64,000 nucleotides of DNA, taken from the UHGV virus genome UHGV-1351772. One strand, written 5' to 3'. A model generated the notes under the pieces. The model was given only the letters and a program-made list of their open reading frames with translations, did not search any database and had not been told where the DNA came from. The translations under genes and the position numbers were made by a program. Below are positions 585 through 62,413 of this stretch, piece by piece (the first letter of the stretch is position 1; the number at the start of each line of letters is the position of its first letter). The DNA comes from a virus.

Positions 585-614
585 TACCCACTACTCGTTT
601 CGGAGTAGTGGGTA
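585..614. terminator. bidirectional rho-independent terminator between convergent genes
   Basis: 12-bp stem TACCCACTACTC/GAGTAGTGGGTA with loop GTTTCG. An A-run lies upstream and T-rich sequence downstream. Confidence 0.8.
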
Positions 615-1427: not shown

Positions 1428-1477
1428 GGTACCACCTCCTATAAATACATACCAGTACCGTAAAAATCAAAAAAAAT

Positions 1478-1494
1478 GGGGACGTATAGTCCCC
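1478..1494 (-). terminator. rho-independent terminator after CDS 1522..1962
   Basis: GGGGAC/GTCCCC hairpin is followed on the minus strand by a T8 run. Confidence 0.7.
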
Positions 1495-1962: not shown

Positions 1963-2007
1963 TTTACCTGCTCCTAAAAAGTCGAATTAAAACGCTTAGT
2001 ACCAACG

Positions 2008-2032
2008 TTCATACAGGTAACATCTATCTCTA
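2008..2032 (-). promoter_or_regulatory. degenerate copy of the recurring promoter-like motif (minus-strand reading GAGATAGATGTTACCTGTATGAA)
   Basis: It sits directly after terminator 2057..2082 and about 45 nt upstream of the ATG at 1962. It matches the GATAGATATTATC-N3-GTG family with 2-3 mismatches. Confidence 0.35.
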
Positions 2033-2056
2033 AAAATTTGCGATAAAAAAAGAATA

Positions 2057-2082
2057 TACCTACCCCCTTTCGGAGGTAGGTA
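2057..2082 (-). terminator. rho-independent terminator (TACCTACC..GGAGGTAGGTA family)
   Basis: The hairpin has one mismatch and is followed on the minus strand by TATTCTTTTTTT. Confidence 0.75.
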
Positions 2083-2187
2083 CGTTCCCTGTCATCGGCA
2101 ATGAAACTACAGGATTAAAACCCTTCAGGGCATGAGAATGGGCGTTCTCGAAGGGTGGGCTTTTAGCTTTCGGCGGAGCTAAACTGG

Positions 2188-2835: not shown

Positions 2836-3379
2836 TTCTGTTACCTCGTACTGTTACTACTACTCGTTCTGTTGTACGTCGCTATACCCCGACGTGTGGG
2901 TTAATGGGACGCGTTGACGTCTGATGAGGCGCAGCAGGCAGTGGCAGCAATGACAGCAAGGGCAGCAATGGTACAAACGCCAACGCGAATAAAAAACGCT
3001 ACTGATCAAATAAAACGACAAGGAAAGTATGAGAAACAAAGACCAGTACCGTCGAGTTAACGCGTAACTCTCAATTCACATTACAGGGTATTCACGTTGC
3101 ACTTAGGGGAAATACCCAGTAATTAAATTCTTGGTGGGAGTAGGTGGGAGGATACCCTCCCACCGTACCACCGTTTCGGCAGTCGTGCTACCAGGACCCT
3201 ACGGCCCTAAACGTAAGTCCGAACTTAATCGGTAGGTGTTTACACGTTTTTAAGGAGCTTTCTACCCGTGAGCAAGAGCAGAAAATATCAGAGCAGGCGT
3301 AACTCAGTTGAAGGCTGACGGGAAAATCTACCCAACATACGTCTGTTCTAATTAGGTTAGTGGGCCGAAGCCCACTGTT

Positions 3380-3616
3380 TTAGCCGTATAGGTAATCAGT
3401 GTAAAGAACCTCCCCCTCAGGATAGTGCGTTGTACCGAGGAGTGTGGCTTCGAGGGTAACCTCTTCCACATCACCATCCGATAACAACTCGCCAGTCCAA
3501 CCTATTTCGGATGGAAGAATTGCACATGCAGCTTCTTCCGTAGGGGCTGCCACAATCATTGCGGAATATTCATCCCAACCAACGTGGTCGGTTCTTTCTA
3601 CTAGATACAAGTTCAT
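3380..3616 (-). CDS. hypothetical protein (78 aa; start moved to the internal ATG with an RBS)
   Basis: GGGAGAAAATT-ATG at 3616. The longer ORF start at 3640 has no RBS. Confidence 0.55.
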   Translation of the reverse strand: MNLYLVERTDHVGWDEYSAMIVAAPTEEAACAILPSEIGWTGELLSDGDVEEVTLEATLLGTTHYPEGEVLYTDYLYG

Positions 3617-3680
3617 AATTTTCTCCCACAGATAACACATCTCGTTTTCTGTGTTGAGAATGAACTTACTGGCTAAAATC

Positions 3681-3756
3681 TGGCGGGGGTGGGAAGTTTC
3701 GAACTCCCAACCTTCGGTTTTGGAGACCGCTGCACCACCAATTGTGCTACACCCCC
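3681..3756 (-). tRNA. tRNA-Trp (anticodon CCA), 76 nt with encoded CCA end
   Basis: Hand-folded cloverleaf. Acceptor stem is GGGGGTG/CACCCCC and D stem is GCAC/GTGC with a GG in the loop. The anticodon loop is CT-CCA-AA. T stem is GGGAG/CTTCC with loop TTCGAAA, and the discriminator is G. There is one G-A mismatch at positions 27-43. From memory, the anticodon and T arms look close to E. coli tRNA-Trp. Confidence 0.9.
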
Positions 3757-3763
3757 TAATACA

Positions 3764-4264
3764 TCAAAACAGCTTAAGTGTTTGCGTTTGACCACCGCTG
3801 TACAGGTCGTAACGTTTCGCCACTTCCACCGCAGTGGGGGCGTCAACGCCAGCACCTAATGCACCCAGGGCATAGTGAGCACCTGAGCCTATCGCATACG
3901 GCGGCTCTACAAACACGTAACTGGCGTATTTGTTGTCTTTGCACTTCGAGGCGTCGATAACGCGTCCGTCTGTCAAAACAGCAAGTACGATAAAATCAAT
4001 CTGCTCGGGATACGTCGTTTCGAATCTAACTCCACCCCGTTCGATACCGCCGAAACGTTCAAGCGTGAGTTCTTGGCGCACGGATTGCAATGCGGCGACA
4101 TCACCTGCCAAACCGATCGCTTTCACGTCTTCACCCAAAAGCTTCCACGACGTACCCTCAGGCGGCGTGTGAATCTTACGGTATTGCGTGGCAGCACTAC
4201 GTTCTTCCACGGTGACTTGACCGTCGCAAGCTAACGTCTTTCCGTCGAAAACAATCGTGGTCAT
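3764..4264 (-). CDS. HslV/proteasome beta-type N-terminal-nucleophile (Thr) peptidase homolog (166 aa)
   Basis: The N-terminus MTTIVFDGKTLACDGQVT parallels E. coli HslV MTTIV..AGDGQAT. Further matches are GLAGD (GFAGG) and AIGSGAHYALGALGAG (AIGSGGPYAQAAA). Confidence 0.65.
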   Translation of the reverse strand: MTTIVFDGKTLACDGQVTVEERSAATQYRKIHTPPEGTSWKLLGEDVKAIGLAGDVAALQSVRQELTLERFGGIERGGVRFETTYPEQIDFIVLAVLTDGRVIDASKCKDNKYASYVFVEPPYAIGSGAHYALGALGAGVDAPTAVEVAKRYDLYSGGQTQTLKLF

Positions 4265-4626
4265 GACAGATTTCCTAACTCATTGCCGACCTCCTGGTCA
4301 GCAGCTACCATCGAATTCGTGCAACGCGTAACATGTTCACGAATCGCTCGAGCCAAACCTTCACGAACGGCTACCAGGAGACACTCTCGATAGCTCGGAT
4401 AATGCGCAATAGGGCTAGGGATGTGTTCCACGCAATAACCATCGTGAACTTCCACCACTACCGTGATGTAAATCTCGACGGGTTGGTAAATCCGCACGCT
4501 CTTGATCAAATCAAGTAACGCTGGCTCCGTGCATCCCCAGTCCTCCGGGGCTTTTAACAGCACTGCCAACTCATCGAGCCTGTACTGAACATCCAATTCC
4601 ACGTTAGTGGTGTTTTTGGAATCCAT
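4261..4626 (-). CDS. hypothetical protein (121 aa; start moved to the ATG with a GGAG RBS)
   Basis: GGAGATTTTAAT-ATG at 4626. There is an ATGA overlap with the HslV-like gene. Confidence 0.6.
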   Translation of the reverse strand: MDSKNTTNVELDVQYRLDELAVLLKAPEDWGCTEPALLDLIKSVRIYQPVEIYITVVVEVHDGYCVEHIPSPIAHYPSYRECLLVAVREGLARAIREHVTRCTNSMVAADQEVGNELGNLS

Positions 4627-5486
4627 ATTAAAATCTCCTGTCGTGGTCTGTGTCACACCAACAGGAAATCCTGTAAAAAAATAATTCAGCTGCGTACCGG
4701 CGTTTCTCAACGGGAGTACGCACCCCTCTCGTCTTTGCGAGCCGTCAAGCTAGAGGACATCACACTGCCAGCGCTACCTGGAGCAGGGTCATTCGACGCA
4801 ACGTCGTAATTCGCATTTTGGCCGCACCTCTGGGAGCGTATCCCACCGTCGGCTGCCCGCAGGTAAGTTCTACGGACCTTTCGCCAACGTCGCTCCCAGA
4901 GGCTGCCACGGTTCACTCGGATTTTCTCATGTGGTCCACGCGTCACTGATAGCGCGGGTTCCCCAACACTCGTAAGTCGGGGAACGGTACCGAGCACCTG
5001 AACTCTGGGGATTCCAAAAATCCCTCGGGGTAAGTACGATTCGCAAATCGATTTTCAAACCCCATAGTAAAACAAACTCCAGTGTTAGGCTGAACGTTTT
5101 GTTTTTCCCAGTACACGGCGAAATAAATTCCATGCACTCGAAAAAACAACCCCCAAACCAACACCCGGTCAGGGGGCTTCGAGCTCTGCTGAATCTTCGC
5201 AGACAGAAATCGTGTTTGAGCTGTGAGCAGTAAACTCCTGAACTCCGAAAAATCTTCGTGGTTGGATTTGTAAATCATCCCACGCAAATCCTCCGAACAT
5301 ACCATAGGGTTTTAACGTTCGAAAAAGGGGAATGGGTTTTACCCCCCTCGGTCAGGTGTTCAGGGTAGACCCCCTACCCGATCCCCCAGGTGGGGATTTT
5401 ACCCTGGTGAATTACCCCGGGTTCGATTTTCGGATTTTCTGGAAAATACCGCTCACCGATCCCTACCCCCTCAGGGGGGTCAGACC

Positions 5487-5496
5487 GAGATCAGAT
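5487..5496 (+). repeat. left copy of the 10-bp direct repeat GAGATCAGAT
   Basis: Identical to 5718..5727. The two copies bracket the CG-block/A+T-core/CG-block unit. Confidence 0.9.
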
Positions 5497-5518
5497 CTCA
5501 TAATAAGGATCGCGCGCG

Positions 5519-5680
5519 TTTTATATATATTTATATATAATATATATTATATATAATAATTATTATATTAATAAATATATTAATATATTTATTTAAATAA
5601 ATAATTAAATAATACCTAAAGGTATTATTATTTTGATCCTAAAGGAATAATATATTTATAAATAAATATATTATACTATA
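5519..5680. repeat. A/T low-complexity core, about 93 percent A+T, with 5519-5614 being 96 nt of pure A/T
   Basis: Direct reading. It contains a perfect 24-nt palindrome at 5570-5593 (AATAAATATATTAATATATTTATT) and a hairpin AATACC-TAAA-GGTATT. It is bounded by CGCGCGCG (5511-5518) and by alternating Pu/Py sequence at 5676-5703 that includes an 18-bp perfect palindrome (5683-5700). Confidence 0.95.
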
Positions 5681-5717
5681 CGCGCGTGCGTACGCACGCG
5701 TATAAGGAAGAGATCTT

Positions 5718-5727
5718 GAGATCAGAT
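5718..5727 (+). repeat. right copy of the 10-bp direct repeat GAGATCAGAT
   Basis: Identical to 5487..5496. Confidence 0.9.
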
Positions 5728-6331
5728 TTTTGAGAGAGTTAAAAATTTAAGATCGATCCGAGAGACTTAGTGTCTCTCGAAGAGTATTAAAAAATTTAAA
5801 AGATCAAAAAACCAAAGCTAGAGAACTACTCAACCTGAATCTTCAGTGTGTGAAGATTCAGTAAGTTGATCAATCCAGCTGATCCGCTAGTACGCGAAGC
5901 GTGAATGTTTTTTTGATCGTCGCGGCGGCCGGTCCGCCGACCCGAGGGTGGGGTGGAACTGGTCGAGGGGAATGCCCCTCAGGCGCTCTCAATCGCGCTG
6001 TAACGAGTTAAACGGGGTTCTGGTACCCAAGTGTACCCCTTGAGGAGATTTTTGCGTCAAAATGCGTTCTAGAGCGTTTTACGATGGGGTGGGTTTTCGA
6101 CCCACTCAGGGATAGGGGTTGGCGTGACAGCTCGAACGACAAAATCGTGGTTTCATGGCGTTGAGTGAAAATAAATTCAAAACCCACAACCAAAAACACC
6201 CTCAAATTCTTCGTAGGAAGCTCTCTGACGAGATAAACGTGGGTAAGGGGTACGAACGTACCGCCTGGAAAGAAAAATGCGTTAGAATCGCTCTCAGCGC
6301 GTTTTTGATTTTTGGGCAAAAAAATAAAACG

Positions 6332-6351
6332 GGGGAGACTTCGGTCTCCCC
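6332..6351 (-). terminator. rho-independent terminator after CDS 6362..7486
   Basis: GGGGAGAC-TTCG-GTCTCCCC is followed on the minus strand by GTTTTATTTTTTT. Confidence 0.85.
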
Positions 6352-7513: not shown

Positions 7514-7538
7514 CTCTCACTAGGATAATATCTATCCG
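7514..7538 (-). promoter_or_regulatory. recurring promoter-like motif (minus-strand reading CGGATAGATATTATCCTAGTGAGAG)
   Basis: The core GATAATATCT(A/G)TC preceded by CAC-N3 is shared exactly with 52611..52635 and 61728..61753. It lies about 27 nt upstream of the ATG at 7486 in a divergent intergenic region. Confidence 0.5.
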
Positions 7539-7559
7539 TAATTATTTCGAGGTTCACTA

Positions 7560-8936: not shown

Positions 8937-8945
8937 AAAAAGAGT

Positions 8946-8975
8946 TAGCCAGTAACCCTAACGGGTTACTGGCTA
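8946..8975. terminator. bidirectional terminator between convergent genes
   Basis: 13-14-bp stem TAGCCAGTAACCC/GGGTTACTGGCTA with loop TAAC. It is flanked by an A-run and a T-run. Confidence 0.85.
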
Positions 8976-8992
8976 GTTTATTTTAGCTGGGT

Positions 8993-15553: not shown

Positions 15554-16462
15554 TTACTGGTTGTTTATCGGTTTGGTGTTTTGGTTAAGTAATGTGTCGT
15601 ATGCCATGATAAAAGCGTCTTTACGTTTTGCCACGTCACATTTCTTAATTAGCCCACCTAAACGGGAGCGGTTAAATATCACGTTCTCTAAGCATGTGCG
15701 GGTAATAACAAAGAGAGACGGTGGATATTCGATGGCGCTGGTAACAAGTTGACGATCGTAGCTAATAAAGCTACCCAGGCTCGTTGCCAGCATACCTTGC
15801 AAACTTACTACGCTGAGATCTTTTAAGCGTGCGGTAATGTCTGCAGCTTTTACCATCTCGACAAATTCACCGATATTGCGTGGGAACAGGAACTCTGTGT
15901 TTCCGGTAACAGTTTCAAAAATCTGTGGTCCGAGGCGAAGTTCACGTTCTAACTGTTGCTGCATTCTTAACATTTTAACTTCATCTTCGAAGTTGTTGTA
16001 GAACTGCCCTACGGAGAACAGGGCAGCGAGTGCCTTGACTTGACCACTTTGATATGGAGCAAGTGCGTAGGTGTGTTCAATTGCATCGCTAATCCACCTG
16101 CTGAAGATCTCATGGTGATAAGACATACGTGACATTAATGCACCGAGCTTATCATTGTTCCGTTTCCACACTAATTCCCAACGTGCTTCGTCGAGACGTA
16201 ATTGGTGCTCAATGGGGTTACGGATTTTCAGTACGCCGTTTTTATCGAGCGTAGTGAAAGTTCGTGCGTCAACGTACACGTCATCACCGATGACGATCGG
16301 TAACGGGAACGGTTTTACATCGGCGGTTTCGATAACGTAATGTACTTCGTCAGACTGTGCAACGGTCTGATTGACTTTACGCGCCAGTTCCAAATCCGCG
16401 TGTAAGCGGGTAAGGTCTATGGTATTAAACGGAGTACCGTTGTAAGCGTTTTTGAGTGCCAT
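15554..16462 (-). CDS. hypothetical protein (302 aa)
   Basis: First gene of the minus-strand block, divergent from the sheath gene. Confidence 0.65.
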   Translation of the reverse strand: MALKNAYNGTPFNTIDLTRLHADLELARKVNQTVAQSDEVHYVIETADVKPFPLPIVIGDDVYVDARTFTTLDKNGVLKIRNPIEHQLRLDEARWELVWKRNNDKLGALMSRMSYHHEIFSRWISDAIEHTYALAPYQSGQVKALAALFSVGQFYNNFEDEVKMLRMQQQLERELRLGPQIFETVTGNTEFLFPRNIGEFVEMVKAADITARLKDLSVVSLQGMLATSLGSFISYDRQLVTSAIEYPPSLFVITRTCLENVIFNRSRLGGLIKKCDVAKRKDAFIMAYDTLLNQNTKPINNQ

Positions 16463-16524
16463 GAGTATGATACCTTAGTATGACCCTTTTTCAAGGTCTT
16501 AAAGACTGAATATGGAGACGTTCC

Positions 16525-19461: not shown

Positions 19462-19477
19462 GCAAAAAAAATAAGTT

Positions 19478-19504
19478 TACCTACCTCCGTCAAGGAGGTA
19501 GGTA
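19478..19504. terminator. bidirectional terminator (TACCTACCTCC..GGAGGTAGGTA family)
   Basis: 11-bp perfect stem with loop GTCAA. A8 lies upstream and a T-run downstream. Confidence 0.9.
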
Positions 19505-19508
19505 GCTT

Positions 19509-20066: not shown

Positions 20067-20095
20067 TGTTTTATCTCCTGAAATCAAAAAAATAA

Positions 20096-20113
20096 GGCGG
20101 TCATAAGACCGCC
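20096..20113 (-). terminator. hairpin terminator or attenuator immediately upstream of the RBS of CDS 19509..20066
   Basis: GGCGGTC-ATAA-GACCGCC is followed on the minus strand by TTATTTTTTT. Confidence 0.6.
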
Positions 20114-20237
20114 CTAGATTTTATTTTCTCCGTCGATGGCTCAGGTAAACCAGACCATCAATCGGTCTAGGTGGCCCTGGCTTCCGAGAAAGAGGTTGTT
20201 GCCATTTCGTAGGATTGATTTTCTCTTCAGGAACAAA

Positions 20238-22259: not shown

Positions 22260-22308
22260 CTTTAATACTCCTTTAGGTTAAACAGTCGAATAGCGTGTAA
22301 TTCTACAA

Positions 22309-22335
22309 CGCTCACCTAAGTAAAATATATCTAAG
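22309..22335 (-). promoter_or_regulatory. variant of the recurring promoter-like motif (minus-strand reading CTTAGATATATTTTACTTAGGTGAGCG)
   Basis: It lies between terminator 22365..22393 and the ATG at 22259. Confidence 0.4.
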
Positions 22336-22364
22336 ATAATTTTCAATAGGGTTAAAATAAAGGT

Positions 22365-22393
22365 GGGCTAGTCTATTCGATGAATAGACTAGC
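22365..22393 (-). terminator. rho-independent terminator after CDS 22403..22954
   Basis: 13-bp stem GGCTAGTCTATTC/GAATAGACTAGCC, followed on the minus strand by CACCTTTATTTT. Confidence 0.8.
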
Positions 22394-22402
22394 CGAATGG
22401 TT

Positions 22403-24812: not shown

Positions 24813-24843
24813 TGTTTTCCCCGAGTAAAAGTAAAAGGTAAGA

Positions 24844-25578
24844 TTACCTCATAAACAAATCTTCGAGCGGTTCGGCACGCACCGGGTCAACCTGTAGCGC
24901 AGAACGAATACCACGTTTAAGTTCTACGTCTGCAAGTTTCGCCAGTCTCGACGTTTTGTTAAGTGAACCACTGCGCAACGGAATAAACTGCACAGGGTTG
25001 TTAAGATCGCTATCTTTCTTCAGCGTGTAACGGAAGAACGTTCTCGGATCACCTACTTTACGCTGCGTGTGTGCTGCGTAAACGTCAGCGGTAATCTGAT
25101 CGGCAAATACAGTAAAACCGTTCCATTTCTTGACTTTATCAGGTGCCAAGAGTTCAGCATCATCCGCTGCAGTAAACCAGAAAGGACGATTACCAAAGTC
25201 GTAAATATACGACGCAATGTTGTAAATAGGGTGAGACAACACCTGTAAATTGCGGTTGGGGAAAACCACTGTACCGGGATCAAAACGAAATTCGTAATAA
25301 GGAACGCCAAAGACGTCGATCTCTTCAAACGCCGTTGGGGTAATTTCCATAAGCGTTGTCACGCTGGACACCCCATATGTTTTACGGTCGGTAGAAATCG
25401 CAAAGATCCCTACAATTGTTACCGTAGAAGAAATAACCGCCAACTCCTTCGCCACAAACCCAACGGGGATGTAAATGTAACACCCCCCTTTGGTAGTGGT
25501 GACCGTGCCGTTATTTACCAAGTCCGCATGAACCTTAGTAGGGTCACGACGGGCTGTTTCAATCGCACTCACGATCAC
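24844..25578 (-). CDS. hypothetical protein (244 aa)
   Basis: Long ORF in the block between the RNAP genes and the protease. Confidence 0.65.
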   Translation of the reverse strand: MIVSAIETARRDPTKVHADLVNNGTVTTTKGGCYIYIPVGFVAKELAVISSTVTIVGIFAISTDRKTYGVSSVTTLMEITPTAFEEIDVFGVPYYEFRFDPGTVVFPNRNLQVLSHPIYNIASYIYDFGNRPFWFTAADDAELLAPDKVKKWNGFTVFADQITADVYAAHTQRKVGDPRTFFRYTLKKDSDLNNPVQFIPLRSGSLNKTSRLAKLADVELKRGIRSALQVDPVRAEPLEDLFMR

Positions 25579-27388: not shown

Positions 27389-30300
27389 TTATTTAAGTGT
27401 CGCGGGTAAATCAGGCACAGCCTCCCCATCGAGTATACGCCCGATGAGAATCCCGGCTTGTTCACCTACAGCATTCGCGGTACCGATACGTTGGATTGAA
27501 CCTACGATACGCGCATCGACGGAATCACGACCGAACAACACGTCCAGGTCATCACCATCCTCTGTTTTGTTGTCGCCGTACATGACTTCTTGTACGGTGG
27601 TTTTTAGCTGGTTAGCAATAACCATCTTATCCGCAGCGGCCATCTCAACGTCGTGTGTAATAAAGAATCGAACACAAAGTGAGTTAAAGGCCAAGGGTAC
27701 ACCTTCAACACGGTAGTCGCCGTTTACACTGCCTGAAACCGGATCACCGCGTCCGACTGCCAGTGCGGCCTTACGACGAATTCTGTCGTATTTACGCACC
27801 AGTTCAGCAAGACTTGGTGTCATGTCTTCGGTTTCACCGTGATACACCACTTCGATTTTATCCACGATACCACGTACCCCTGCACGAGGTGCGTACGAAC
27901 TTAAACTTTGCAACGTTGCGGCTGCTTCCTGACTAAAGGCACTCATATCGCCTGTCAAGTCGTCAGTAAACGTGCATAGGATTGTGTCGACGTCTACGTG
28001 GTCGCCCTCATTCACGATTTCCAAAAGCATTTGGTTGCTGTTAATCGTTACTTCTTTCAGCTTTGTTACCTGCCCCACCATTTTCTTCGCGAACCGTTCA
28101 GAAATTGCGTTGGAGTCTTCGATAACTTCTTCAGCTTCTAATAAAGCAACGGTAGCCAGCACCCCGTTTTTCCAGGAAACCTGAGTAGGATCGTAAATAT
28201 CAGGTTCAAAGTGTTGCTCGTTATACGTAATCACTGCTCCGGCCGGGAGCTTGTCACCGGCTTTCCAGCGTGTTACCAAGGTGTGCGGATAGAAGGTACC
28301 TTCGTGGGGGCCGAACCAGCGCCCTAGAGGAAAGGCTTCTTTACTTCCATCTTCGTACGTAATTTCAATGTGGTCTTTCGACAGACCAGTAATCTTACCT
28401 GCTTTATCAATAACGCGTGCATGTTTCACCGACGTACGGTGTGCGACGAATTTCTCCTGTTCAGTACGGTACGGGGTTGTGGTTGCCCCATTACAACTGG
28501 TGGCAGAACCTAACTGAATCCCAACGAAGTTTTGACGCTTTGCGTCGTCCATTAACGTATCGGGTACTAACCCGTCAATAAACGAAAGGGTATCGCTTGG
28601 TTTCGGGGTTTTCTCTTCACGTTTAAACGTAGTACCGTCAACGGTGTCAAAACGTGGGTTATTGGTGACGAAAGCAGTAATACCTACGTCGCCGTTATCT
28701 ACGGTGTTACCCGAGACTATCCCGATATCGCTGGGTTGGAACTCACGTGTGTGGTAGACCATCGTTTTACGATTACGACCACCTGTACCCCCCATCGTAA
28801 TAACGTCTTTTTCTTTAATTGACTGGATAGGGTTAGCACCTGGTGCCAAAAGTACCGACGGGTCGGAGTTAATTGCACCCCAAACCATGTCTTGCGTCAG
28901 TTCGAACTTACGGTTACTGCCCGGTGCGTTATTGTAGTTACGCATCGCTCTGACCATCGCGGTATAGATGTGGTAGGCAATCCTCTGATTTCCTAAGAAC
29001 ATCATTTCATCGCCGTTAATCTCTGGTAAAGAGTGGTCAGTTTGTAACAGTTCGTTAGAACGTTCCAGCAAGCCAATAAAGGTTTCCGGCTCACCCATTT
29101 TCCTGAGGATACGTGCGTGCATGTCGTCAACAAACGCGGACCGCATCTGTTTCAGCTCGTTGATGTACCGTGGTGTTAGGCCATCTGCATCACGTAATAA
29201 GTTCAGGTAAATGTCTTCACGGTCTGCTTCTGATTCGGTATAAGCAACCAGGTGTTTGAGATAACGATCCAAACCATGCAGAATCATCTTCTGTTGATCG
29301 TTATCGCAAGTAACTAAAAGTTTACAGTCTTGTAGTCGAATAATGCTGTCGTAGGCATTCTTATCAACACGTTGCCCTGCGGGAACCAACTCGTATTGGA
29401 TACCGAAATGTTTCAACATTCCCTGGAGTCCAAGATAGAACGAGAAGATAAAACCAAGCGACAAAGATTTACCCATCAAAGACAGCTCGGTCATTTCGCG
29501 AGGCACTTTCTGGTTATTAAAGCCCAGTACCTCTGCGATAGTTCCCACCGGTTCAACTTTGTTTCCGTTCACACCGTAAAGCATGGATTTGTCATCCATT
29601 GCCAGGATTGTTTCACTACGCGGACGTTTCGCCACCGGCAAAAGTTTGGCAGCATCGGCGTCTCTGAGTTGCTCGTCGTTAAAGAAGTTAACGGCTTCTT
29701 TGTAGTCGAAGTTCCACATATAGCCGTTCGCATTAAAGCTGGCAATACGACGCGCAATCTCCGTATACTGACGCGGCAGATGTTGCGTAGGATCGAACAC
29801 ATTTGCTAAACGTGCGTCGGTGACTTCGGTGTTTGTCGGGTCAACGGCGCGTGTGATGATCGCATTGGTTAACCAACGACCGTAGTCGTTTGCGACCTTA
29901 TCACTACGACGGACAAAGTTTTTACCGTAAGCGGTAGTCAGTGCGACAGTATCCGGTGCAACCTTACGGATCGGTAAGTCCACACGTTGCCGACGCATGG
30001 TGTATTCGACACCATTAGCGACCCAGGTACCGTCTTCGGTCAAGCCTGGGATGGAGAAGCGAACGGTTGTTGGTTCACCACCGACTGGCTGAACACGTAA
30101 AGTGTGGTGCTCGATAGTCCCTGTAACAGAAACCTCTTTTTCCACCGTGTGGTTGTGAACTGCCAGACCCAAACGTTGTGAGCTGGCGACCGCCGCCAGT
30201 ACGTCCTTCGTCATCATGGTCTGGTTGTACTGTTTCACCATCTGGTCGGTGACGTTCTCTGCCCACCCTTCATCAGTAACAAGTCGCTGAACTTTTTTCG

Positions 30301-31555
30301 GTTCGGCTTTAACGACAATATCTTTCTCGTGAACAGTCAGTGCTTCCCCGTAGGTTTCTTTCGGGTTATACGGGTTAGGTAACTGAACGAAACGTTTAGA
30401 CGATTCTGACAGGAACTGATATGCTTTAGAACTTAAGCGGCCCGCTTCAGCTAAGCGTTGTGCTTCCTGTTTAATAATCTCGTCATGCGGAATGACTTTC
30501 TCGACGACGATAGTCGTCGGTTTGACGTCTTCCTTCGGTTCTTCAATAACAACGTCTTCTTTTTCATCGAAGGTGTTATCGGATTCGACCACAGCGTCAT
30601 TAACAACGTCGTCATCATCGACAACATCAACGGTTTCTTCTTCGACGTCTTTAAGGAAAACACGCTCGTCGCCTTCAGGCGTTAGGAATTCCGCTTCGTA
30701 CGCGTTAGACGGTGCTTGTGTCATTACACGCACCAGCGTACGGTAGAACATCCTGGCCATTTGGTCGTCACTTAAACGACCGCCGGATGACTTACGCATT
30801 TTCTCTACAACACCCATGTTCATGGACGTAAAGCCCGTGTTGTGGGTGAAGATAAAGTTCATTCGTGACAGCTGAGTTAAATCCATTCCCGCGAATAAGG
30901 AATCGGATTGTTTTCCATAAGCCCAAGCAAACAACTCCAATAACCACAGCAAGTTGAAGTCCTGGAACTTCTCAATCTTACTCTTAACGCGATCGTTATA
31001 GGTTGTTTGAAACTTCTGGAACGAAGGTAGAGTCGAACCTAGTTCAATAACGAAATAGTTCTGACGCATGTATTCTTGCGTGTCGTATTTGAACTGGTTA
31101 ATCATCAACAGTTGGATGTTACGCAGTCTATCGTACCAGGCTAACTGGGTATCAGGATAGTAATAGTGCGATAGCATCGGTGTGTAGTTCTCGACCAGGA
31201 GAACTTTTAAGTCTTTGCGAACCAGATCGTCTGAGGTAAGACGACGCATCGGTCGGTTTGCACGGTGGTAAGCAAAGATAGCACGTTCTTGCCCCTGAAC
31301 AGGTTTGTTGCGCGGATGACCGCTAATACCGTCTTCCGGTAATTTAAAGTGGTGACGAACCTGTGCAGGTTTTTCTAACGGTTGAATAATCTCGAGTGTT
31401 GCAGGTGGCGCTAACACCACCTGGTCGAGATCAATGACATGGAGTACAGAACCACGTGGTATCTGTAGCTTCTCGAGCGGGATAATCCTCGGATTACCAA
31501 ACTCGTCAGTTTTACGCACCGAGAAGCGTTGGTTAAACTGTTTAATGAGCAGCAT
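27389..31555 (-). CDS. multisubunit RNA polymerase beta-like subunit (1388 aa), lacking the extreme beta C-terminus
   Basis: MGGTGGRNRKTMVYHTREFQPSDIGIVSGNTVDNGDVGI aligns with bacterial beta GPGGL..EVRDVH.SHYGR.CP.ETPEG.NIGL. EDSNAISERF aligns with FEDAILISER. AADKMVIANQLKT sits at the GDKMAGRHGNKG position. An acidic low-complexity insert lies at about aa 300-370. Confidence 0.7.
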   Translation of the reverse strand: MLLIKQFNQRFSVRKTDEFGNPRIIPLEKLQIPRGSVLHVIDLDQVVLAPPATLEIIQPLEKPAQVRHHFKLPEDGISGHPRNKPVQGQERAIFAYHRANRPMRRLTSDDLVRKDLKVLLVENYTPMLSHYYYPDTQLAWYDRLRNIQLLMINQFKYDTQEYMRQNYFVIELGSTLPSFQKFQTTYNDRVKSKIEKFQDFNLLWLLELFAWAYGKQSDSLFAGMDLTQLSRMNFIFTHNTGFTSMNMGVVEKMRKSSGGRLSDDQMARMFYRTLVRVMTQAPSNAYEAEFLTPEGDERVFLKDVEEETVDVVDDDDVVNDAVVESDNTFDEKEDVVIEEPKEDVKPTTIVVEKVIPHDEIIKQEAQRLAEAGRLSSKAYQFLSESSKRFVQLPNPYNPKETYGEALTVHEKDIVVKAEPKKVQRLVTDEGWAENVTDQMVKQYNQTMMTKDVLAAVASSQRLGLAVHNHTVEKEVSVTGTIEHHTLRVQPVGGEPTTVRFSIPGLTEDGTWVANGVEYTMRRQRVDLPIRKVAPDTVALTTAYGKNFVRRSDKVANDYGRWLTNAIITRAVDPTNTEVTDARLANVFDPTQHLPRQYTEIARRIASFNANGYMWNFDYKEAVNFFNDEQLRDADAAKLLPVAKRPRSETILAMDDKSMLYGVNGNKVEPVGTIAEVLGFNNQKVPREMTELSLMGKSLSLGFIFSFYLGLQGMLKHFGIQYELVPAGQRVDKNAYDSIIRLQDCKLLVTCDNDQQKMILHGLDRYLKHLVAYTESEADREDIYLNLLRDADGLTPRYINELKQMRSAFVDDMHARILRKMGEPETFIGLLERSNELLQTDHSLPEINGDEMMFLGNQRIAYHIYTAMVRAMRNYNNAPGSNRKFELTQDMVWGAINSDPSVLLAPGANPIQSIKEKDVITMGGTGGRNRKTMVYHTREFQPSDIGIVSGNTVDNGDVGITAFVTNNPRFDTVDGTTFKREEKTPKPSDTLSFIDGLVPDTLMDDAKRQNFVGIQLGSATSCNGATTTPYRTEQEKFVAHRTSVKHARVIDKAGKITGLSKDHIEITYEDGSKEAFPLGRWFGPHEGTFYPHTLVTRWKAGDKLPAGAVITYNEQHFEPDIYDPTQVSWKNGVLATVALLEAEEVIEDSNAISERFAKKMVGQVTKLKEVTINSNQMLLEIVNEGDHVDVDTILCTFTDDLTGDMSAFSQEAAATLQSLSSYAPRAGVRGIVDKIEVVYHGETEDMTPSLAELVRKYDRIRRKAALAVGRGDPVSGSVNGDYRVEGVPLAFNSLCVRFFITHDVEMAAADKMVIANQLKTTVQEVMYGDNKTEDGDDLDVLFGRDSVDARIVGSIQRIGTANAVGEQAGILIGRILDGEAVPDLPATLK

Positions 31556-31564
31556 TGCTTAGCC

Positions 31565-33184
31565 TTATGGGTTCTTTAATAACGCTTGCGTTGCACGTTT
31601 AATCACGTTGTTGATAGGATTGATTTTAAAGTTCCCATCAGAATCGAACCAGTAGTTTTTCGAGTGTATCCAGTTCCGGTTTTCCTCGAGCGCTTCCTGG
31701 GACATAGGCGCGTTAAACGACCCGGTATCGCCATCGTAGTCACCCCCTAAGCCACCTAGACGTGAAGGGTGTGGTGCCATCGACTCAACGAAGGTAGGAA
31801 CCGACCGGTCAGGGTAGCTGATAGCCCCTCGGGGTTTTTCAGTTTCCCAGTCATCTTCCAGTTCTTTTAAATATAAAGATGACGTGGTGGTCTCCAATCT
31901 TATGGTCGATGAATACGTCGAGCCTCGGCCTGTAACGGGATAACGTGTAACGAAACCGAAATAATCGTTCCAAAGTTCGTAGCCCGACAAATAAAGCAAT
32001 TCGACGAGTGTCATACCGTGGACGAATTTTCGGTCAAACGTTTTAGGAAGTTCTTCAATATCGTAGAACACCTTAAAATGTTTGGTGTCTTGGTAAACCA
32101 ACGCAACGTAGTGGGTGTCGTCCAACATAATCGGCTGATGGCGAAGCCCGCGAGCTTCCATTCGGTTGATTAAGGATTCAATCCCATCGTCGGTGGTGAA
32201 GGTGTCGTATACACGACCACCTACTTCCAAGAATTCACGTTTAAGGGTTTTGGTGTTTACGCCGTAAAGGTTGCCATCACCGGCACGGATGTTACCGAGG
32301 TAACGTTCACGTATCTGGTATTGGGCGACAGGGAGTAATGCTTTTAAACCCTGGTATAAACCAATTTTGGTGTCGGTAGGACGAATAGCGTCTTCACGAC
32401 CCATGCACTTAGACCCCGTCGAGAACGAGGACAGTACGTTACGTGTCCCGTTCATTAATTTACGAGACGTCACTTTACGACGTTGGAAACCCCCTTTACC
32501 GTCTTGGATGTTAAAGAAATACATCCAGATATCGTTGAAGGTTTGTTGCAGCTTCCAGCGTACGGGGTTAGTTAATTCAACACGGGTTGCCCGGTCAGGG
32601 ATCGCCCTGGCGAGAGATACCAACCGACGATACATCCCGCCGATTTCTTCTTCCTGTTCTCTACCATCTTGTCGAATTACTAAATCGCGTAAACCCGCGG
32701 GTAACACGAGAACGTATCGACTAAGACTAACGGGACGGAATTTCAAAAAGAAATCCACGGTTTCGTCACGTTGTAGGGACTCGTTACGCTTAGGTTTTAA
32801 ATCGTTATAGTGATTGAGGAAGAAGTTAAAACCGGTATCTGCGCCTGGGTCTCCCGGCAAGGCCGGTTCGAAATCTTTTTCTTTTTCGCTCCACGTTGCG
32901 TAGCGTTTTCCAGAACAAATTTCTTCGTAGAGTTGTTTGAGTTGGAATAACGCCAAACACACTGTCGGCGAAATGATATCGAGTTTAATATCGATATAAG
33001 AGAAAGTAGAGTCTCGCGCTTCACTCCCCGTGAGTCCAAATATCTCTGTAGAGTAAAGACCTTCGGGGTGAAAGTTTTTTGTTAACCCCTGGAAAGTATC
33101 CGTGGTCGTGACGGGTCGTAATCGCGACACAAGAGACTTGTTTACATTGAGCAGATAAAAGTCAACCCAATTAAGTTTATTCAC
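31565..33184 (-). CDS. multisubunit RNA polymerase beta-prime-like N-terminal fragment (539 aa)
   Basis: GGDYDGDTGSFNAPMSQEALEE (nt 31727-31741 encode DYDGD) aligns with beta-prime [23 protein letters not shown]. GTG start follows AGGAG. The ORF ends about 45 aa after the metal-binding motif. Confidence 0.75.
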   Translation of the reverse strand: MNKLNWVDFYLLNVNKSLVSRLRPVTTTDTFQGLTKNFHPEGLYSTEIFGLTGSEARDSTFSYIDIKLDIISPTVCLALFQLKQLYEEICSGKRYATWSEKEKDFEPALPGDPGADTGFNFFLNHYNDLKPKRNESLQRDETVDFFLKFRPVSLSRYVLVLPAGLRDLVIRQDGREQEEEIGGMYRRLVSLARAIPDRATRVELTNPVRWKLQQTFNDIWMYFFNIQDGKGGFQRRKVTSRKLMNGTRNVLSSFSTGSKCMGREDAIRPTDTKIGLYQGLKALLPVAQYQIRERYLGNIRAGDGNLYGVNTKTLKREFLEVGGRVYDTFTTDDGIESLINRMEARGLRHQPIMLDDTHYVALVYQDTKHFKVFYDIEELPKTFDRKFVHGMTLVELLYLSGYELWNDYFGFVTRYPVTGRGSTYSSTIRLETTTSSLYLKELEDDWETEKPRGAISYPDRSVPTFVESMAPHPSRLGGLGGDYDGDTGSFNAPMSQEALEENRNWIHSKNYWFDSDGNFKINPINNVIKRATQALLKNP

Positions 33185-52610: not shown

Positions 52611-52635
52611 GTCTCACGTAGATAATATCTGTCTG
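52611..52635 (-). promoter_or_regulatory. recurring promoter-like motif (minus-strand reading CAGACAGATATTATCTACGTGAGAC)
   Basis: Exact GATAATATCT core with CAC-N3, in a divergent intergenic region. Confidence 0.5.
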
Positions 52636-52663
52636 ACTTCTTTTTGAAATTGAGGTAGTAAGA

Positions 52664-53128: not shown

Positions 53129-53804
53129 ATAAAGCGGCATCTCGTGGGTCGACACCGACCCACTCTGCCATAAACCGGATATGTTCCTTAAACGGGTTAA
53201 CCCCGTCTTGTTTGATTTGTTCAACCAATTCCCCGGTCAGTTCTGGTGTGAGCATGGCAGGGTGTGTGATGGTAAAGCTCGGAATCGGTTTTTTCAAGTG
53301 CGTAGCATTAAGCTTAATCCACTCGAACCAATCGTACATTATCCAGCAATCCCACGCCAACGACAATCTCCCCGGTGTGAGATCTTCTAACGACCAAGAC
53401 ACTAATTCAACTTGTACGTTATTGTAGTACATCCGAAACAGATTCAAAAAGGCTTGAAGTTCTTCGCCCGTTAAATCCGTATAAGGCCACGTATTGATGG
53501 TCAGAGTGGGTTTTTCAATTGGCGAATGCATTTCGATTTCAAGCAACATACACTCGAATTCGTTTTTCATTGTTGCCAATAATTCAGTAGGCTGCGCATT
53601 AATCAACGCGCGCTTATCCCGCTTCCGCCACACTTCATCCCATTTTTCAAATCCAAGTACGCCAGCCCAAGCTTCTGTATAGCGACGACGATAAACGTCG
53701 TAGTCTAGCAATGTTAAGCTTTCAGGCTTAACGGCTTTTACCCAACCTAAACGCGTATCAAATAACGTATCAATATCGATTAAGAAACGCCGAGATAATC
53801 TCAT
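53082..53804 (-). CDS. hypothetical protein (240 aa) with an N-terminal HAD-like DxDxT motif
   Basis: FLIDIDTLFDTRLG is the only support and it is weak. Confidence 0.55.
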   Translation of the reverse strand: MRLSRRFLIDIDTLFDTRLGWVKAVKPESLTLLDYDVYRRRYTEAWAGVLGFEKWDEVWRKRDKRALINAQPTELLATMKNEFECMLLEIEMHSPIEKPTLTINTWPYTDLTGEELQAFLNLFRMYYNNVQVELVSWSLEDLTPGRLSLAWDCWIMYDWFEWIKLNATHLKKPIPSFTITHPAMLTPELTGELVEQIKQDGVNPFKEHIRFMAEWVGVDPRDAALFSLARPAQDVQTPPS

Positions 53805-54469
53805 GACGGATGGCCTATGTTGTTACCGATATGCATCGCTTTTAGGTACGCCGACCACGTACGCGTTGCTTTAGAACTCGTTCGCTCCGCCCCAGGCAAA
53901 TCAATACGCCCTTTACCGGTTTGGCGTAGCGACTGATAGAAAGCACGTTGTAATGCGTCGTTACCACCACGCGCCCACAAGAACTCTTTCAGCGTCCAGT
54001 CGTGACCATCGGAATACATGATGTATGCTTCTGGGAAGGACACCCCAGATGCTTTGGAAGGACCAACGACTTGACCGGAGAGCTTATCGCGGACTTTGTC
54101 GTTTTTCGCAACCGCCATTTTCTTTTCTTGCATCTGTGTCTGACGACGGACAGGCAAGCGTAAGACTAAGTGAGGGTAACGAGTACGGTGATAGACACCC
54201 GTTTTTGGTTCTGTTAACCAGAGTCGTTGCTCCAGGTTTACCCCGAGAATTTTGCACACCTCGATATTGCGCAGGTGGTCAATTTCGACTTTACTTCCCA
54301 CCGGGTTGTAAATAGGTAAACCGTTACGAAGTCGATTAAACTGTTCGTCGGTCATTCGTGCGAAGGCTTTCTTCGCGGCTTCAGCATTAATGCCAGAAGG
54401 GTCTACCAACTTTAAGATTTGTAAGGCGTAGGCTTCCGCCTTTTTACGCCGTGCTGGTTCGAGTTTCAT
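53801..54469 (-). CDS. possible RNA polymerase beta-like C-terminal fragment (222 aa)
   Basis: LTEPKTGVYHRTRYPHLVLRLP..KNDKVRDKLSGQVVGPSKASGVSFPEAYIMYSDGHDWTLKEFL aligns by eye with beta L.[44 protein letters not shown]. Confidence 0.4.
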   Translation of the reverse strand: MKLEPARRKKAEAYALQILKLVDPSGINAEAAKKAFARMTDEQFNRLRNGLPIYNPVGSKVEIDHLRNIEVCKILGVNLEQRLWLTEPKTGVYHRTRYPHLVLRLPVRRQTQMQEKKMAVAKNDKVRDKLSGQVVGPSKASGVSFPEAYIMYSDGHDWTLKEFLWARGGNDALQRAFYQSLRQTGKGRIDLPGAERTSSKATRTWSAYLKAMHIGNNIGHPS

Positions 54470-59349: not shown

Positions 59350-59384
59350 GGTTTATTCTCCTAAAATGGTTAAAAATAAAGTAA

Positions 59385-59402: not shown

Positions 59403-59408
59403 TGTCTA

Positions 59409-61727: not shown

Positions 61728-61753
61728 TTACACCTGGATAATATCTATCTAAG
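61728..61753 (-). promoter_or_regulatory. recurring promoter-like motif (minus-strand reading CTTAGATAGATATTATCCAGGTGTAA)
   Basis: Exact GATAATATCTATC core. It overlaps the stop codon of the upstream gene. Confidence 0.5.
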
Positions 61754-62413
61754 AATATTTTTAGCGAAAAAAGGATCGACTGTAAACTCCCTCACCTGTG
61801 AGTCATAACCCGAATGTATCTGATCGCTACTGAGCAAATACCCGTCTAAATCGTGTGGAAGAATCCAAGAATCGCCTTGTTTAAAAATACCATAATCTGT
61901 TGTTCCAGAGGAAAAAACGATTTCCTCTGGAGACGAATAGATGTGGCGTAAGGCAAGATCTGACGGCTTTAACACGATTAATCGAACGGGATGTTGACTG
62001 ACTGCCTCTTTAATAAACTGTTCACGATTAAACCAAATTATTTTTTCGGGGTAAGTTTCGAATTCAGCCCATGTCCGCGTGATAACTAATTTGGAAATCT
62101 TTCTCAATTCTTCAGAATGCTCTGCGTAGCCGATACACTCCTTGCGCACTTCATGATTTTCTACCGATGCTGTGAATTTTTGGAATAGGTGTTGTTGGAA
62201 AAAGCCGTTCTCCGGGATATCACAACCCGCGTTGTATAGTGCAATGATCTCCCACAACAACGAAAGAGAAAACACAAATGCTAACTTTTCCACAACTTCC
62301 CAATCTTCGGAGTAAGGGGCTTTAAAGCCCCAATACTGCCGTGCGTTATACATAAAGTGAGTTTGTAAAAACCGAGGGGCTTTTGACAAGACCTCACTAT
62401 AAACGATCAGCAT
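61745..62413 (-). CDS. hypothetical protein (222 aa)
   Basis: 7-nt overlap with the RNase H fusion gene. Confidence 0.6.
   Translation of the reverse strand: MLIVYSEVLSKAPRFLQTHFMYNARQYWGFKAPYSEDWEVVEKLAFVFSLSLLWEIIALYNAGCDIPENGFFQQHLFQKFTASVENHEVRKECIGYAEHSEELRKISKLVITRTWAEFETYPEKIIWFNREQFIKEAVSQHPVRLIVLKPSDLALRHIYSSPEEIVFSSGTTDYGIFKQGDSWILPHDLDGYLLSSDQIHSGYDSQVREFTVDPFFAKNILR

What the first reader, a model, noticed from the sequence alone, without database searches (positions are those of the whole stretch)
7514..7538. Recurring oriented motif GA(T/C)AGATATTATC-N3-GTG upstream of minus-strand genes; candidate phage-specific promoter class
Three near-identical copies lie at 7514-7538, 52611-52635 and 61728-61753. 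Two degenerate copies lie at 22309-22335 and 2008-2032. All five are in the same orientation, 18-50 nt upstream of minus-strand start codons. The two degenerate copies sit immediately after a terminator, as expected for a promoter that restarts transcription. The core contains a -10-like TATTAT but there is no evident -35. That fits a phage RNAP or modified-host-RNAP promoter rather than a standard sigma70 promoter.
Basis: seen in the sequence. Interest (0 to 1): 0.5.

Follow-up and report, generated by a model that had tools for sequence, protein, structure and literature searches.

The report
Early promoters of a jumbo phage
The repeated motif marks five start signals for the phage's own virion-carried RNA polymerase in an SPN3US-like giant phage; this promoter type is already known from phiKZ-like phages, so the finding is real but ordinary.

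Summary
All five sites exist at the stated coordinates, on the minus strand, 18-49 nt upstream of minus-strand start codons. Sites D and E follow strong terminators.

The window is part of an uncultivated 225-kb jumbo phage related to Salmonella phage SPN3US. It encodes four of the five virion RNA polymerase (vRNAP) subunits.

- A weight matrix built only from 23 SPN3US sites recovers exactly these five window sites (30-39 bits). The next best hit scores 8.6 bits, and the simulated maximum is 18.
- All five sites have positional orthologues in SPN3US. Sites A, D and E also have them in the Erwinia phages.
- The architecture matches the published phiKZ early-promoter consensus and the AR9 early consensus in register: A-tract, AGAT, ATATTAY, then N6-G(+1).
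- In SPN3US, none of the 21 first downstream genes encodes a virion protein, and two sites head the non-virion RNAP (nvRNAP) operons.

Best reading: early promoters read by the injected vRNAP. Predicted transcription starts are 7518, 52615, 61731, 22313 and 2010.

The two "degenerate" copies are a conserved sub-variant, TATWTTACY-TAGGT-G. Its transcripts begin with a covarying 5'-terminal hairpin (40 of 43 unique leaders across IMG/VR).

Novelty is low: new members of a known kind. No transcription start has been mapped experimentally.

The parts
7516..7550 (-). Promoter A (-32 to +3), core AGATATTATC at 7533-7524, predicted +1 = G at 7518. It lies in the 73-nt divergent gap between a 374-aa gene (minus strand) and a 458-aa gene (plus strand) that is the homologue of SPN3US head protein gp262.
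   Evidence: 37.1 bits with the SPN3US-only matrix. Orthologous sites occur in SPN3US, Asesino, phiEaH2 and an 89%-identical IMG/VR relative.
52613..52647 (-). Promoter B, core at 52630-52621, predicted +1 = 52615, in a 71-nt divergent gap. It heads the run of genes 52592 down to 48437, which ends at the terminator at 48432-48405.
   Evidence: 38.9 bits. The SPN3US orthologue is at 191606. Terminator.
61729..61763 (-). Promoter C, core at 61746-61737, predicted +1 = 61731. It is an internal promoter in a co-directional gene array, and its upstream half overlaps the end of ORF 61745-62413 (TAG stop at 61747-61745).
   Evidence: (29.8 bits). The SPN3US orthologue is at 184048.
22311..22345 (-). 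Promoter D, sub-variant ATATTTTACT-TAGGT-G, predicted +1 = 22313.
   Evidence: 37.0 bits with the SPN3US-only matrix; top window hit of the phiKZ-derived matrix at 18.0 bits. A 22-nt block is invariant across four phages.
2008..2042 (-). Promoter E, core AGATGTTACC, predicted +1 = 2010.
   Evidence: 31.4 bits. Orthologues are at SPN3US 4431 and phiEaH2 L133:6783.
22366..22394 (-). Intrinsic-terminator-like hairpin (13 pairs plus a T-run) that ends the upstream operon just before promoter D.
   Evidence: The hairpin is conserved with different stem sequences in SPN3US, Asesino and phiEaH2.
2056..2083 (-). Intrinsic-terminator-like hairpin (12 pairs plus TTCTTTTTT) just before promoter E.
22282..22312 (-). 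Leader of transcript D: 5'-terminal hairpin at +2 to +22 (AGCGT...ACGCT, 22312-22292), followed by the box ATTCGACTGT (22291-22282). 5'UTR 54 nt.
   Evidence: Stems differ in the orthologues (AGCGTT/AACGCT in SPN3US, AGATTA/TAATCT in the Erwinia phages).
1978..2010 (-). Leader of transcript E: 5'-terminal hairpin at +1 to +21 (GAACGTT...AGCGTTT, 2010-1990), followed by the box ATTCGACTTT (1987-1978). 5'UTR 48 nt.
27389..33184 (-). Two adjacent genes for virion RNAP subunits: 27389-31555 (1388 aa, 77% identical to SPN3US gp241) and 31565-33184 (539 aa, 86% identical to gp240). This is the enzyme proposed to read the motif. Neither gene is preceded by the motif.
   Evidence: blastp. SPN3US virion proteome and vRNAP subunit assignments from PMC5694885. 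Pfam detects no RNAP domain in these divergent proteins.
24844..25572 (-). Homologue of SPN3US gp244, the vRNAP beta' C-terminal subunit (87% identity).
53801..54469 (-). Homologue of SPN3US gp218, the vRNAP beta C-terminal subunit (83% identity).

Best explanation
The five sites are early promoters of an SPN3US-like, phiKZ-related jumbo phage (Chimalliviridae-type).

**Proposed mechanism (inferred, not shown)**
1. The multisubunit virion RNA polymerase (vRNAP) is injected with the DNA.
2. It recognises a roughly 35-bp asymmetric element. This comprises T-32, A-29 with an A-tract to -24, T-23, AGAT at -19 to -16, and an AT-rich -10-centred core A(G/T)AT(A/G)TTA(T/C)(C/T) at -15 to -6.
3. It initiates at an invariant G six nucleotides after the TATTAT/TATTAC hexamer.
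4. The predicted starts are 7518, 52615, 61731, 22313 and 2010 on the minus strand.
5. Each site starts a run of non-structural genes, either in a divergent gap opposite a late virion gene (A, B), inside a co-directional array (C), or directly after a terminator (D, E).

**Shown here**
- Motif specificity, strand bias and intergenic location.
- Positional conservation across three phage lineages.
- Register-exact similarity to experimentally defined early promoters.
- Non-virion identity of the downstream genes in SPN3US.

**Inferred**
- Which enzyme reads the motif.
- The exact start nucleotide.
- Early timing.
For: **1. Identity of the phage**
- The window is about 75% identical in DNA to SPN3US, phiEaH2 and Asesino, and collinear with them.
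- It is 99-100% identical to the IMG/VR contig 3300029126_000001, 225 kb.
- It encodes homologues of vRNAP subunits gp240, gp241, gp244 and gp218.

**2. Discreteness of the class**
- The SPN3US-only matrix finds only these five sites, at 30-39 bits. The next hit is 8.6 bits, and the simulated maximum is 18.1.

**3. Strand bias**
- Window: 5 of 5 on the minus strand.
- SPN3US: 23 of 23 on the plus strand. The only opposite-strand hits are mirror images of the palindromic core.

**4. Positional conservation**
- Every window site has an SPN3US orthologue: A-238185, B-191606, C-184048, D-223281, E-4431. The syntenic part of SPN3US has no unmatched site.
- A, D and E are also kept in Asesino and/or phiEaH2.
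- In the alignments the motif is an invariant block while flanks vary.

**5. Match to known early promoters**
- The published phiKZ consensus early promoter is tatattaaaaaaaatttaagatgtatattacaaatgtg (PMC12676376, Table S1).
- The AR9 early consensus is AAATATATATTAT-(6N)-G(+1) (PMC5312081).
- Both have the same layout and spacing as the window sites.
- A matrix from seven phiKZ TATATTAC sites picks D as the top window hit. Nine of its top ten SPN3US hits are class members.
- The review PMC7598289 states that every RNAP-encoding jumbo phage has such a roughly 10-nt AT-rich motif centred near -10 upstream of early operons.

**6. Downstream genes**
- In SPN3US, 0 of 21 first downstream genes are among the 86 virion proteins. 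My arithmetic puts the chance of this at about 2.5e-4.
- Sites 15711 and 28973 head the operons holding the non-virion RNAP genes, as in phiKZ (PMC13282480).
- The divergent partners gp262, gp8 and gp21 are head proteins.

**7. Sigma-70 signals**
- Sigma-70-type consensus matches are depleted in the window relative to shuffles: 15 against 26.0, 8 against 23.3, and 21 against 32.8.

**8. Predicted start site**
- G+1 is invariant in 32 of 32 sites.
- In the sub-variant, a conserved hairpin begins exactly at the predicted +1 to +3.
Against: - No transcription start, time course or in-vitro transcription data exist for this phage. None was found for SPN3US in the searchable literature.
- Early timing and vRNAP specificity therefore rest on analogy with phiKZ and AR9.
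- The core TATTAT resembles a sigma-70 -10 hexamer, so some recognition by host RNAP cannot be excluded from sequence alone.
- Some operons headed by the motif contain virion-protein genes further downstream. For example, the homologue of SPN3US gp223 (window 49928-51202) is the third gene after B.
- One SPN3US site (25230) lies inside a gene.
- The paper that first predicted such motifs across jumbo phages (Lavysh et al. 2016) could not be read. Whether this exact logo is already published is therefore unverified.
Confidence: 0.8

Rival explanations
1. The sites are promoters of the phage's non-virion RNAP (nvRNAP), that is, middle-class promoters, or are used by both phage polymerases, rather than early vRNAP promoters.
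For: No timing data exist for this phage. In phiKZ and AR9 some genes carry promoters of two classes or are expressed continuously. Virion-protein genes occur further down at least one motif-headed operon.
Against: - phiKZ middle and late promoters have only weak motifs: an AT-rich or TACT element near -22 to -24, or TATG at the start site. Per the review, they cannot be found bioinformatically.
- The window motif is strong and centred near -10. It matches the phiKZ and AR9 early consensus in register.
- The nvRNAP genes themselves lie downstream of motif sites in SPN3US, so something present before the nvRNAP exists must read them.
Confidence: 0.1
2. The sites are host sigma-70 promoters of the extended -10 or UP-element type, used by the bacterial RNA polymerase.
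For: The core contains TATTAT (5 of 6 matches to TATAAT), with an A/T-rich tract upstream.
Against: - None of the sites passes the sigma-70 scan, and there is no -35.
- Sigma-70-like matches are depleted in the window.
- The most conserved positions include AGAT at -19 to -16 and an invariant G+1, which sigma-70 does not specify.
- The sub-variant TATWTTAC ends in C where sigma-70 needs T-7, if TWTTAC is read as the hexamer.
- The 21-nt sub-variant pattern occurs in IMG/VR only on jumbo-phage contigs.
- phiKZ-type infections are independent of host RNAP.
Confidence: 0.05
3. The motif is an operator for a dimeric phage DNA-binding regulator and not itself a promoter.
For: The core of sites B and several SPN3US sites is a perfect palindrome, AGATA-T-TATCT. 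This produces weak mirror-image hits on the other strand.
Against: - The palindrome is broken in the sub-variant (ATATATTAC) and in site E.
- The conserved flanks are asymmetric: an A-tract and AGAT upstream, GTGAG downstream.
- Orientation is always co-directional with the downstream gene, in 28 of 28 sites.
- The distance to the start codon fits a 23-54-nt 5'UTR.
Confidence: 0.04
4. The recurrence is chance, arising from AT-rich low-complexity sequence.
For: The short core with 1-2 mismatches is not significantly enriched over shuffles.
Against: The extended matrix separates the five sites from everything else by more than 20 bits. The sites are positionally conserved in three other phage lineages.
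Confidence: 0.01

Closest known systems
phiKZ early promoters (read by vRNAP; 28-32 per genome; consensus tatattaaaaaaaatttaagatgtatattacaaatgtg)
   Same: - Same layout and spacing: A-rich tract, (A)AGAT, one base, TATATTAC or GATATTAT, five bases, then TG with G as the likely +1.
- Strictly co-directional with genes.
- Similar density: 23 in 240 kb in SPN3US and 5 in this 64-kb window.
- Precede non-structural genes and nvRNAP genes.
- The phiKZ-derived matrix finds window site D and the SPN3US sub-variant sites.
   Different: - In three of the five window sites the core is GATAGATATTATC rather than TATATTAC.
- The downstream GTGAG is more conserved here.
- By eye, the seven phiKZ leaders I printed show no obvious 5'-terminal hairpin of the kind found in the sub-variant here. 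I did not fold them.
- Nothing has been mapped experimentally in this lineage.
Bacillus phage AR9 early promoters (AAATATATATTAT-(6N)-G+1; 41 mapped by dRNA-seq)
   Same: The ATATTAT-(6N)-G(+1) spacing is identical to sites A-C (TATTAT-CCTAGT-G). AR9 also has the arrangement of early promoters facing late virion genes in divergent gaps. [quoted passage not shown]
   Different: AR9 is a distant phage with a uracil-containing genome and no phage nucleus. Its upstream element is a plain AT-run without the AGAT block.
T4-type PeSL cassettes (early promoter plus stem-loop modules between genes; recalled from memory, Arbiol et al. 2010, not checked here)
   Same: The sub-variant forms a repeated cassette of terminator hairpin, near-identical promoter of about 30 nt, and stem-loop. 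It is scattered between gene blocks. Such repeats could support recombinational shuffling.
   Different: PeSLs are sigma-70 early promoters. No evidence for recombination at these sites was sought here.
Coliphage N4 virion RNAP promoters
   Same: Both are promoters read by a polymerase carried in the virion and injected with the DNA.
   Different: The N4 vRNAP is a single-subunit enzyme that recognises a DNA hairpin upstream of the start site (my recollection). Here the enzyme is multisubunit, the motif is an AT-rich duplex-type element, and the hairpin lies downstream of +1, in the transcript.

Membership tests
Early (vRNAP-dependent) promoters of phiKZ-related jumbo phages | The phage encodes a multisubunit virion RNAP. 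| tested here: met
   The window encodes homologues (77-87% aa identity) of SPN3US vRNAP subunits gp241, gp240, gp244 and gp218. SPN3US subunit assignments come from virion mass spectrometry and amber mutants (PMC5694885).
Early (vRNAP-dependent) promoters of phiKZ-related jumbo phages | A highly conserved AT-rich element of about 10 nt centred near -10, over-represented and found upstream of operons. | tested here: met
   Core at -15 to -6 with invariant A-13, T-12, T-10 and A-8 over 32 sites. The five window sites score 30-39 bits against a background maximum of 18. The definition is taken from PMC7598289.
Early (vRNAP-dependent) promoters of phiKZ-related jumbo phages | Sequence similarity, in register, to the experimentally defined phiKZ and AR9 early consensus. 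| tested here: met
   The phiKZ consensus string, the AR9 consensus, and the phiKZ-derived matrix, which hits window D and nine SPN3US class members among its top ten.
Early (vRNAP-dependent) promoters of phiKZ-related jumbo phages | Co-directional with, and upstream of, non-virion (early-type) genes, including nvRNAP genes. | tested here: met
   All 28 sites are co-directional. In SPN3US, 0 of 21 first downstream genes are virion proteins, and the nvRNAP genes lie in motif-headed operons. The window genes downstream are PHROG families of unknown function.
Early (vRNAP-dependent) promoters of phiKZ-related jumbo phages | Primary 5' ends map a fixed distance downstream of the motif, appear within minutes, and are independent of new protein synthesis and of host RNAP. 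| not testable with these tools
   No transcriptome or primer-extension data are available for this phage, and none was found for SPN3US.
Sigma-70 promoters | A -35 hexamer (TTGACA-like) 16-18 nt upstream of a TATAAT-like -10 hexamer. | tested here: not met
   None of the five sites appears in the consensus scans. The conserved upstream bases are an A-tract and AGAT.
Palindromic operator of a dimeric regulator | Two-fold symmetry conserved across sites, and orientation-independent placement. | tested here: not met
   Symmetry is lost in sites D and E and in the SPN3US sub-variant. The flanks are asymmetric, and all sites have one orientation relative to genes.

The most novel reading that the evidence does not exclude
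The TATWTTACY-TAGGT-G sub-variant (window sites D and E) may be more than a promoter. It may be a distinct expression cassette found only in SPN3US/Erskinevirus-like jumbo phages. In that cassette the early transcript always begins with a covarying 5'-terminal hairpin and has a fixed leader of about 44-57 nt, often with a GACYAT-type box before a strong ribosome-binding site.

This would mark a post-transcriptionally distinct subset of early mRNAs. Possible roles are protection from 5'-end-dependent decay, recognition by a phage RNA-binding factor, or handling of RNA leaving the early infection vesicle.
Probability: 0.35. Interest if true: 0.45.

Novelty: new member of a known kind. Interest (0 to 1): 0.27.

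Why it matters
The result gives a precise transcription-unit map for this part of an uncultivated jumbo phage: five predicted early starts and their terminators. It also shows that the vRNAP promoter architecture is conserved from phiKZ to the SPN3US and Erskinevirus lineages, down to spacing and the start nucleotide. That makes a simple weight matrix usable for annotating early regulons in metagenomic chimalliviruses and for designing early-expression cassettes.

The only element that goes beyond textbook expectation is the hairpin-leader sub-class. It could be tested as an mRNA-stability or recognition element.

Tried and rejected
- **IMG/VR scan with AGATAGATATTATC.** The 14-mer is too short for that collection.
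- **Literature string searches for the core.** These gave only irrelevant papers.
- **Primary papers.** Lavysh et al. 2016 and Ceyssens et al. 2014 are not held. The supplements of the two phiKZ start-site papers are not held either. I therefore could not check the phiKZ +1 position directly. I relied on the consensus string in PMC12676376 and on the AR9 paper.
- **Function of downstream genes.** Pfam and PHROGs gave no function for the genes downstream of the five sites. Pfam does not recognise the divergent vRNAP subunits.
- **Leader alignment.** MAFFT could not align the variable hairpins, so covariation was assessed per sequence against shuffles.
- **The ATYCGACYRT box alone.** It is not significantly enriched in the window: 41 matches against 29 expected. 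It occurs in only 16 of 43 unique leaders, so it is not a defining feature.
- **Rfam.** It finds nothing in the window except one tRNA.

Full report
**Observation.** Reading the minus strand at the five stated places shows the following sites.

| Site | Sequence |
|---|---|
| A | GGATAGATATTATCCTAGTGAGAG |
| B | AGACAGATATTATCTACGTGAGAC |
| C | AGATAGATATTATCCAGGTGTAAC |
| D | TTAGATATATTTTACTTAGGTGAGCG |
| E | GAGATAGATGTTACCTGTATGAAC |

- The exact 10-mer AGATATTATC occurs three times, always on the minus strand.
- The short core with mismatches is not significant on its own, so significance has to come from the extended motif and from comparison with other phages.

**What the window is.** The DNA is about 75% identical to, and collinear with, Salmonella phage SPN3US and Erwinia phages phiEaH2 and Asesino.
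- It is 99-100% identical to a 225-kb IMG/VR contig, 3300029126_000001.
- These are phiKZ-related jumbo phages with two multisubunit RNA polymerases.
- The window encodes homologues of four of the five SPN3US virion RNAP subunits: 27389-31555, 31565-33184, 24844-25572 and 53801-54469. The SPN3US assignments come from PMC5694885.

**Specificity.**
It finds 23 sites in SPN3US, all on the plus strand.
- Rebuilt from SPN3US sites only, and so independent of the window, the matrix scores the five sites at 29.8-38.9 bits.
- The next hit (8.6 bits) is the mirror image of B's palindromic core. The best score in 200 simulations was 18.1.
- The window is 94% coding. Four sites are entirely non-coding, and C overlaps the last 18 nt and the stop codon of the upstream ORF.

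**Conservation.** Each window site has a positional orthologue in SPN3US: A-238185, B-191606, C-184048, D-223281, E-4431. SPN3US has no extra site in the syntenic region.
- A, D and E are also present at the orthologous places in Asesino and/or phiEaH2.
- In alignments the motif is an invariant block. Around D, 22 consecutive positions are identical in four phages.
- The terminator hairpin upstream of D keeps its structure with different stem sequences, and the leader downstream diverges.
- The consensus over 32 sites is T-32 c n A-29 A a a a a T-23 t t c A-19 G A T A g A T a T T A t c T a n g t G+1 A g a.
- A-29, A-13, T-12, T-10, A-8 and G+1 are invariant.

**Comparison with known promoters.**
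- The review PMC7598289 states that every RNAP-encoding jumbo phage has a roughly 10-nt AT-rich motif centred near -10 upstream of early operons. It adds that wherever tested this motif is the vRNAP early promoter, whereas middle and late promoters cannot be predicted from sequence.
- The AR9 early consensus is AAATATATATTAT-(6N)-G(+1).
- The phiKZ consensus early promoter used as a genetic part is tatattaaaaaaaatttaagatgtatattacaaatgtg.
- Written in register:
  - phiKZ: AAAAAAATTTAAGAT-G-TATATTAC-AAATG-TG
  - window D: GAAAATTATCTTAGAT-A-TATTTTAC-TTAGG-TG
  - window A: GAAATAATTACGGAT-A-GATATTAT-CCTAG-TG
- In the first 50 kb of phiKZ, TATATTAC occurs seven times on the coding strand and never on the other, upstream of genes including the nuclear-shell gene.
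- A matrix from those seven sites picks D as the best hit in the window. Nine of its top ten hits in SPN3US are class members.
This gives 5'UTRs of 32, 23, 23, 54 and 48 nt.

**Downstream genes.** The RefSeq locus-tag number equals 266 minus the original gp number; this was checked on the sheath, capsid and vRNAP genes.
- With that conversion, none of the 21 first genes downstream of SPN3US sites is among the 86 virion proteins.
- Sites 15711 and 28973 head the operons with the non-virion RNAP genes.
- Several divergent partners (gp262, gp8, gp21) are head proteins. This is the same early-facing-late arrangement described for AR9.
- In the window, the genes after the sites are conserved phage proteins of unknown function.
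- The B operon runs on towards thymidylate synthase and a MazG-like gene.
- Sigma-70-type consensus matches are depleted two- to three-fold relative to shuffles, and none of the five sites passes that scan.

**Verdict on mechanism.** The best-supported reading is that these are early promoters read by the injected vRNAP (confidence about 0.8).
- The rivals are nvRNAP/middle promoters, host sigma-70 promoters, a palindromic operator, and chance.
- They are disfavoured by the strength and position of the motif, its asymmetry and orientation, the lack of a -35, and the cross-phage conservation.
- Enzyme, timing and the exact +1 remain inferred, because no 5'-end data exist for this lineage.

**Extension: the 'degenerate' copies are a sub-class.** D and E belong to a variant with the core ATAT(A/T)TTAC(C/T)-TAGGT-G.
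- Their transcripts begin with a hairpin at +1 to +3 whose stem differs from site to site and between orthologues. Examples are AGCGTT/AACGCT, AGATGAG/CTCATCT, GATAGA/TCTATC and AGATTA/TAATCT.
- The leader that follows is about 50 nt and often contains an ATCGACTAT-type box ahead of a strong ribosome-binding site.
- The class-1 sites A-C have short, unstructured leaders.
- The 21-nt pattern GATATATWTTACYTAGGTGAG occurs 47 times in IMG/VR. All matches are on about 13 jumbo-phage contigs of 107-246 kb plus one 7-kb fragment. Wherever a contig has several listed matches they share one strand, and five matches are in the window's own contig.
- Of 43 unique leaders, 40 have the 5'-terminal hairpin. 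Median folding energy of +1 to +28 is -6.8 kcal/mol, against -1.4 for shuffles.
- 5'UTRs are 44-57 nt where a ribosome-binding site was detected. 28 of the 43 are preceded by a terminator-like hairpin. Only 16 have the CGAC box.
- The hairpin starting at the predicted +1 indirectly supports the start-site assignment.
- Its function is unknown. A 5'-terminal stem-loop is a classic mRNA stabiliser in enterobacteria (my own knowledge). AR9 early 5'UTRs also carry an unexplained motif.

**Novelty and score.** The motif class is known for phiKZ-related phages, and these are new members in an uncultivated relative. Interest is low to moderate (0.27). The hairpin-leader cassette is the only part that may be new.

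Noticed in passing
window 22282-22312 and 1978-2010 (minus strand); SPN3US L001-L005 sites 4431, 56298, 65417, 94243, 113990, 165691, 223281; loci L135-L179: Transcripts from the TATWTTACY-TAGGT-G promoter variant begin with a covarying 5'-terminal hairpin (40 of 43 unique leaders in IMG/VR). Their 5'UTRs are 44-57 nt, and some carry a CGAC-type box before the ribosome-binding site. Many are preceded by a terminator, so together these form a repeated terminator-promoter-hairpin cassette.
   Followed up: partly
window, whole: Sigma-70-type promoter consensus matches are two- to three-fold rarer than in dinucleotide shuffles (15 against 26.0, 8 against 23.3, 21 against 32.8). This is consistent with a genome that avoids host-RNAP promoters.
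   Followed up: no
window 16463-16524 (divergent gap between the tail-sheath gene 16525-18582 on the plus strand and 15554-16462 on the minus strand): This 62-nt gap is 89% conserved across the four phages. It contains GAGTATGATACCTTAGTATGACC, with two TATG motifs, which resembles the phiKZ late-promoter element T-3 A T G+1. It is a candidate late promoter for the sheath gene.
   Followed up: partly
window 1451-1461 and 3042-3052 (minus strand): The exact 11-mer ACGGTACTGGT occurs twice, each time about 10-25 nt upstream of a minus-strand ORF start (1023-1427 and 2860-3039). Three one-mismatch copies lie at 1653, 4454 and 44774, all on the minus strand: 5 matches against 1.1 expected. Its meaning is unknown.
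   Followed up: partly
window 3681-3756 (minus strand): A tRNA-Trp (CCA) gene lies in a poorly coding stretch (about 2850-6300) that corresponds to the tRNA region at the left end of the SPN3US record.
   Followed up: partly
window 48405-48432, 59384-59403, 20093-20116, 1478-1494 (minus strand): Strong terminator-like hairpins sit inside co-directional gene runs, only 26-34 nt before the next start codon in three cases and 50 nt in the fourth (1478-1494). No vRNAP-type motif follows any of them, and the three short gaps are too short for the roughly 35-bp element. They probably act as partial (read-through) terminators or RNA-stability elements within the early operons.
   Followed up: no
window 585-614, 6332-6351, 8942-8979, 19477-19505, 57463-57492: Perfectly symmetric hairpins with T-runs on both sides, that is, bidirectional terminators. 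Four lie where gene orientation changes and one (6332-6351) lies at the end of the gene downstream of promoter A.
   Followed up: no
SPN3US L001: 25230 (inside CDS 23886-25493): One full-strength motif copy (45 bits) lies inside a coding region, 276 nt upstream of the next gene. It may be an internal promoter.
   Followed up: no
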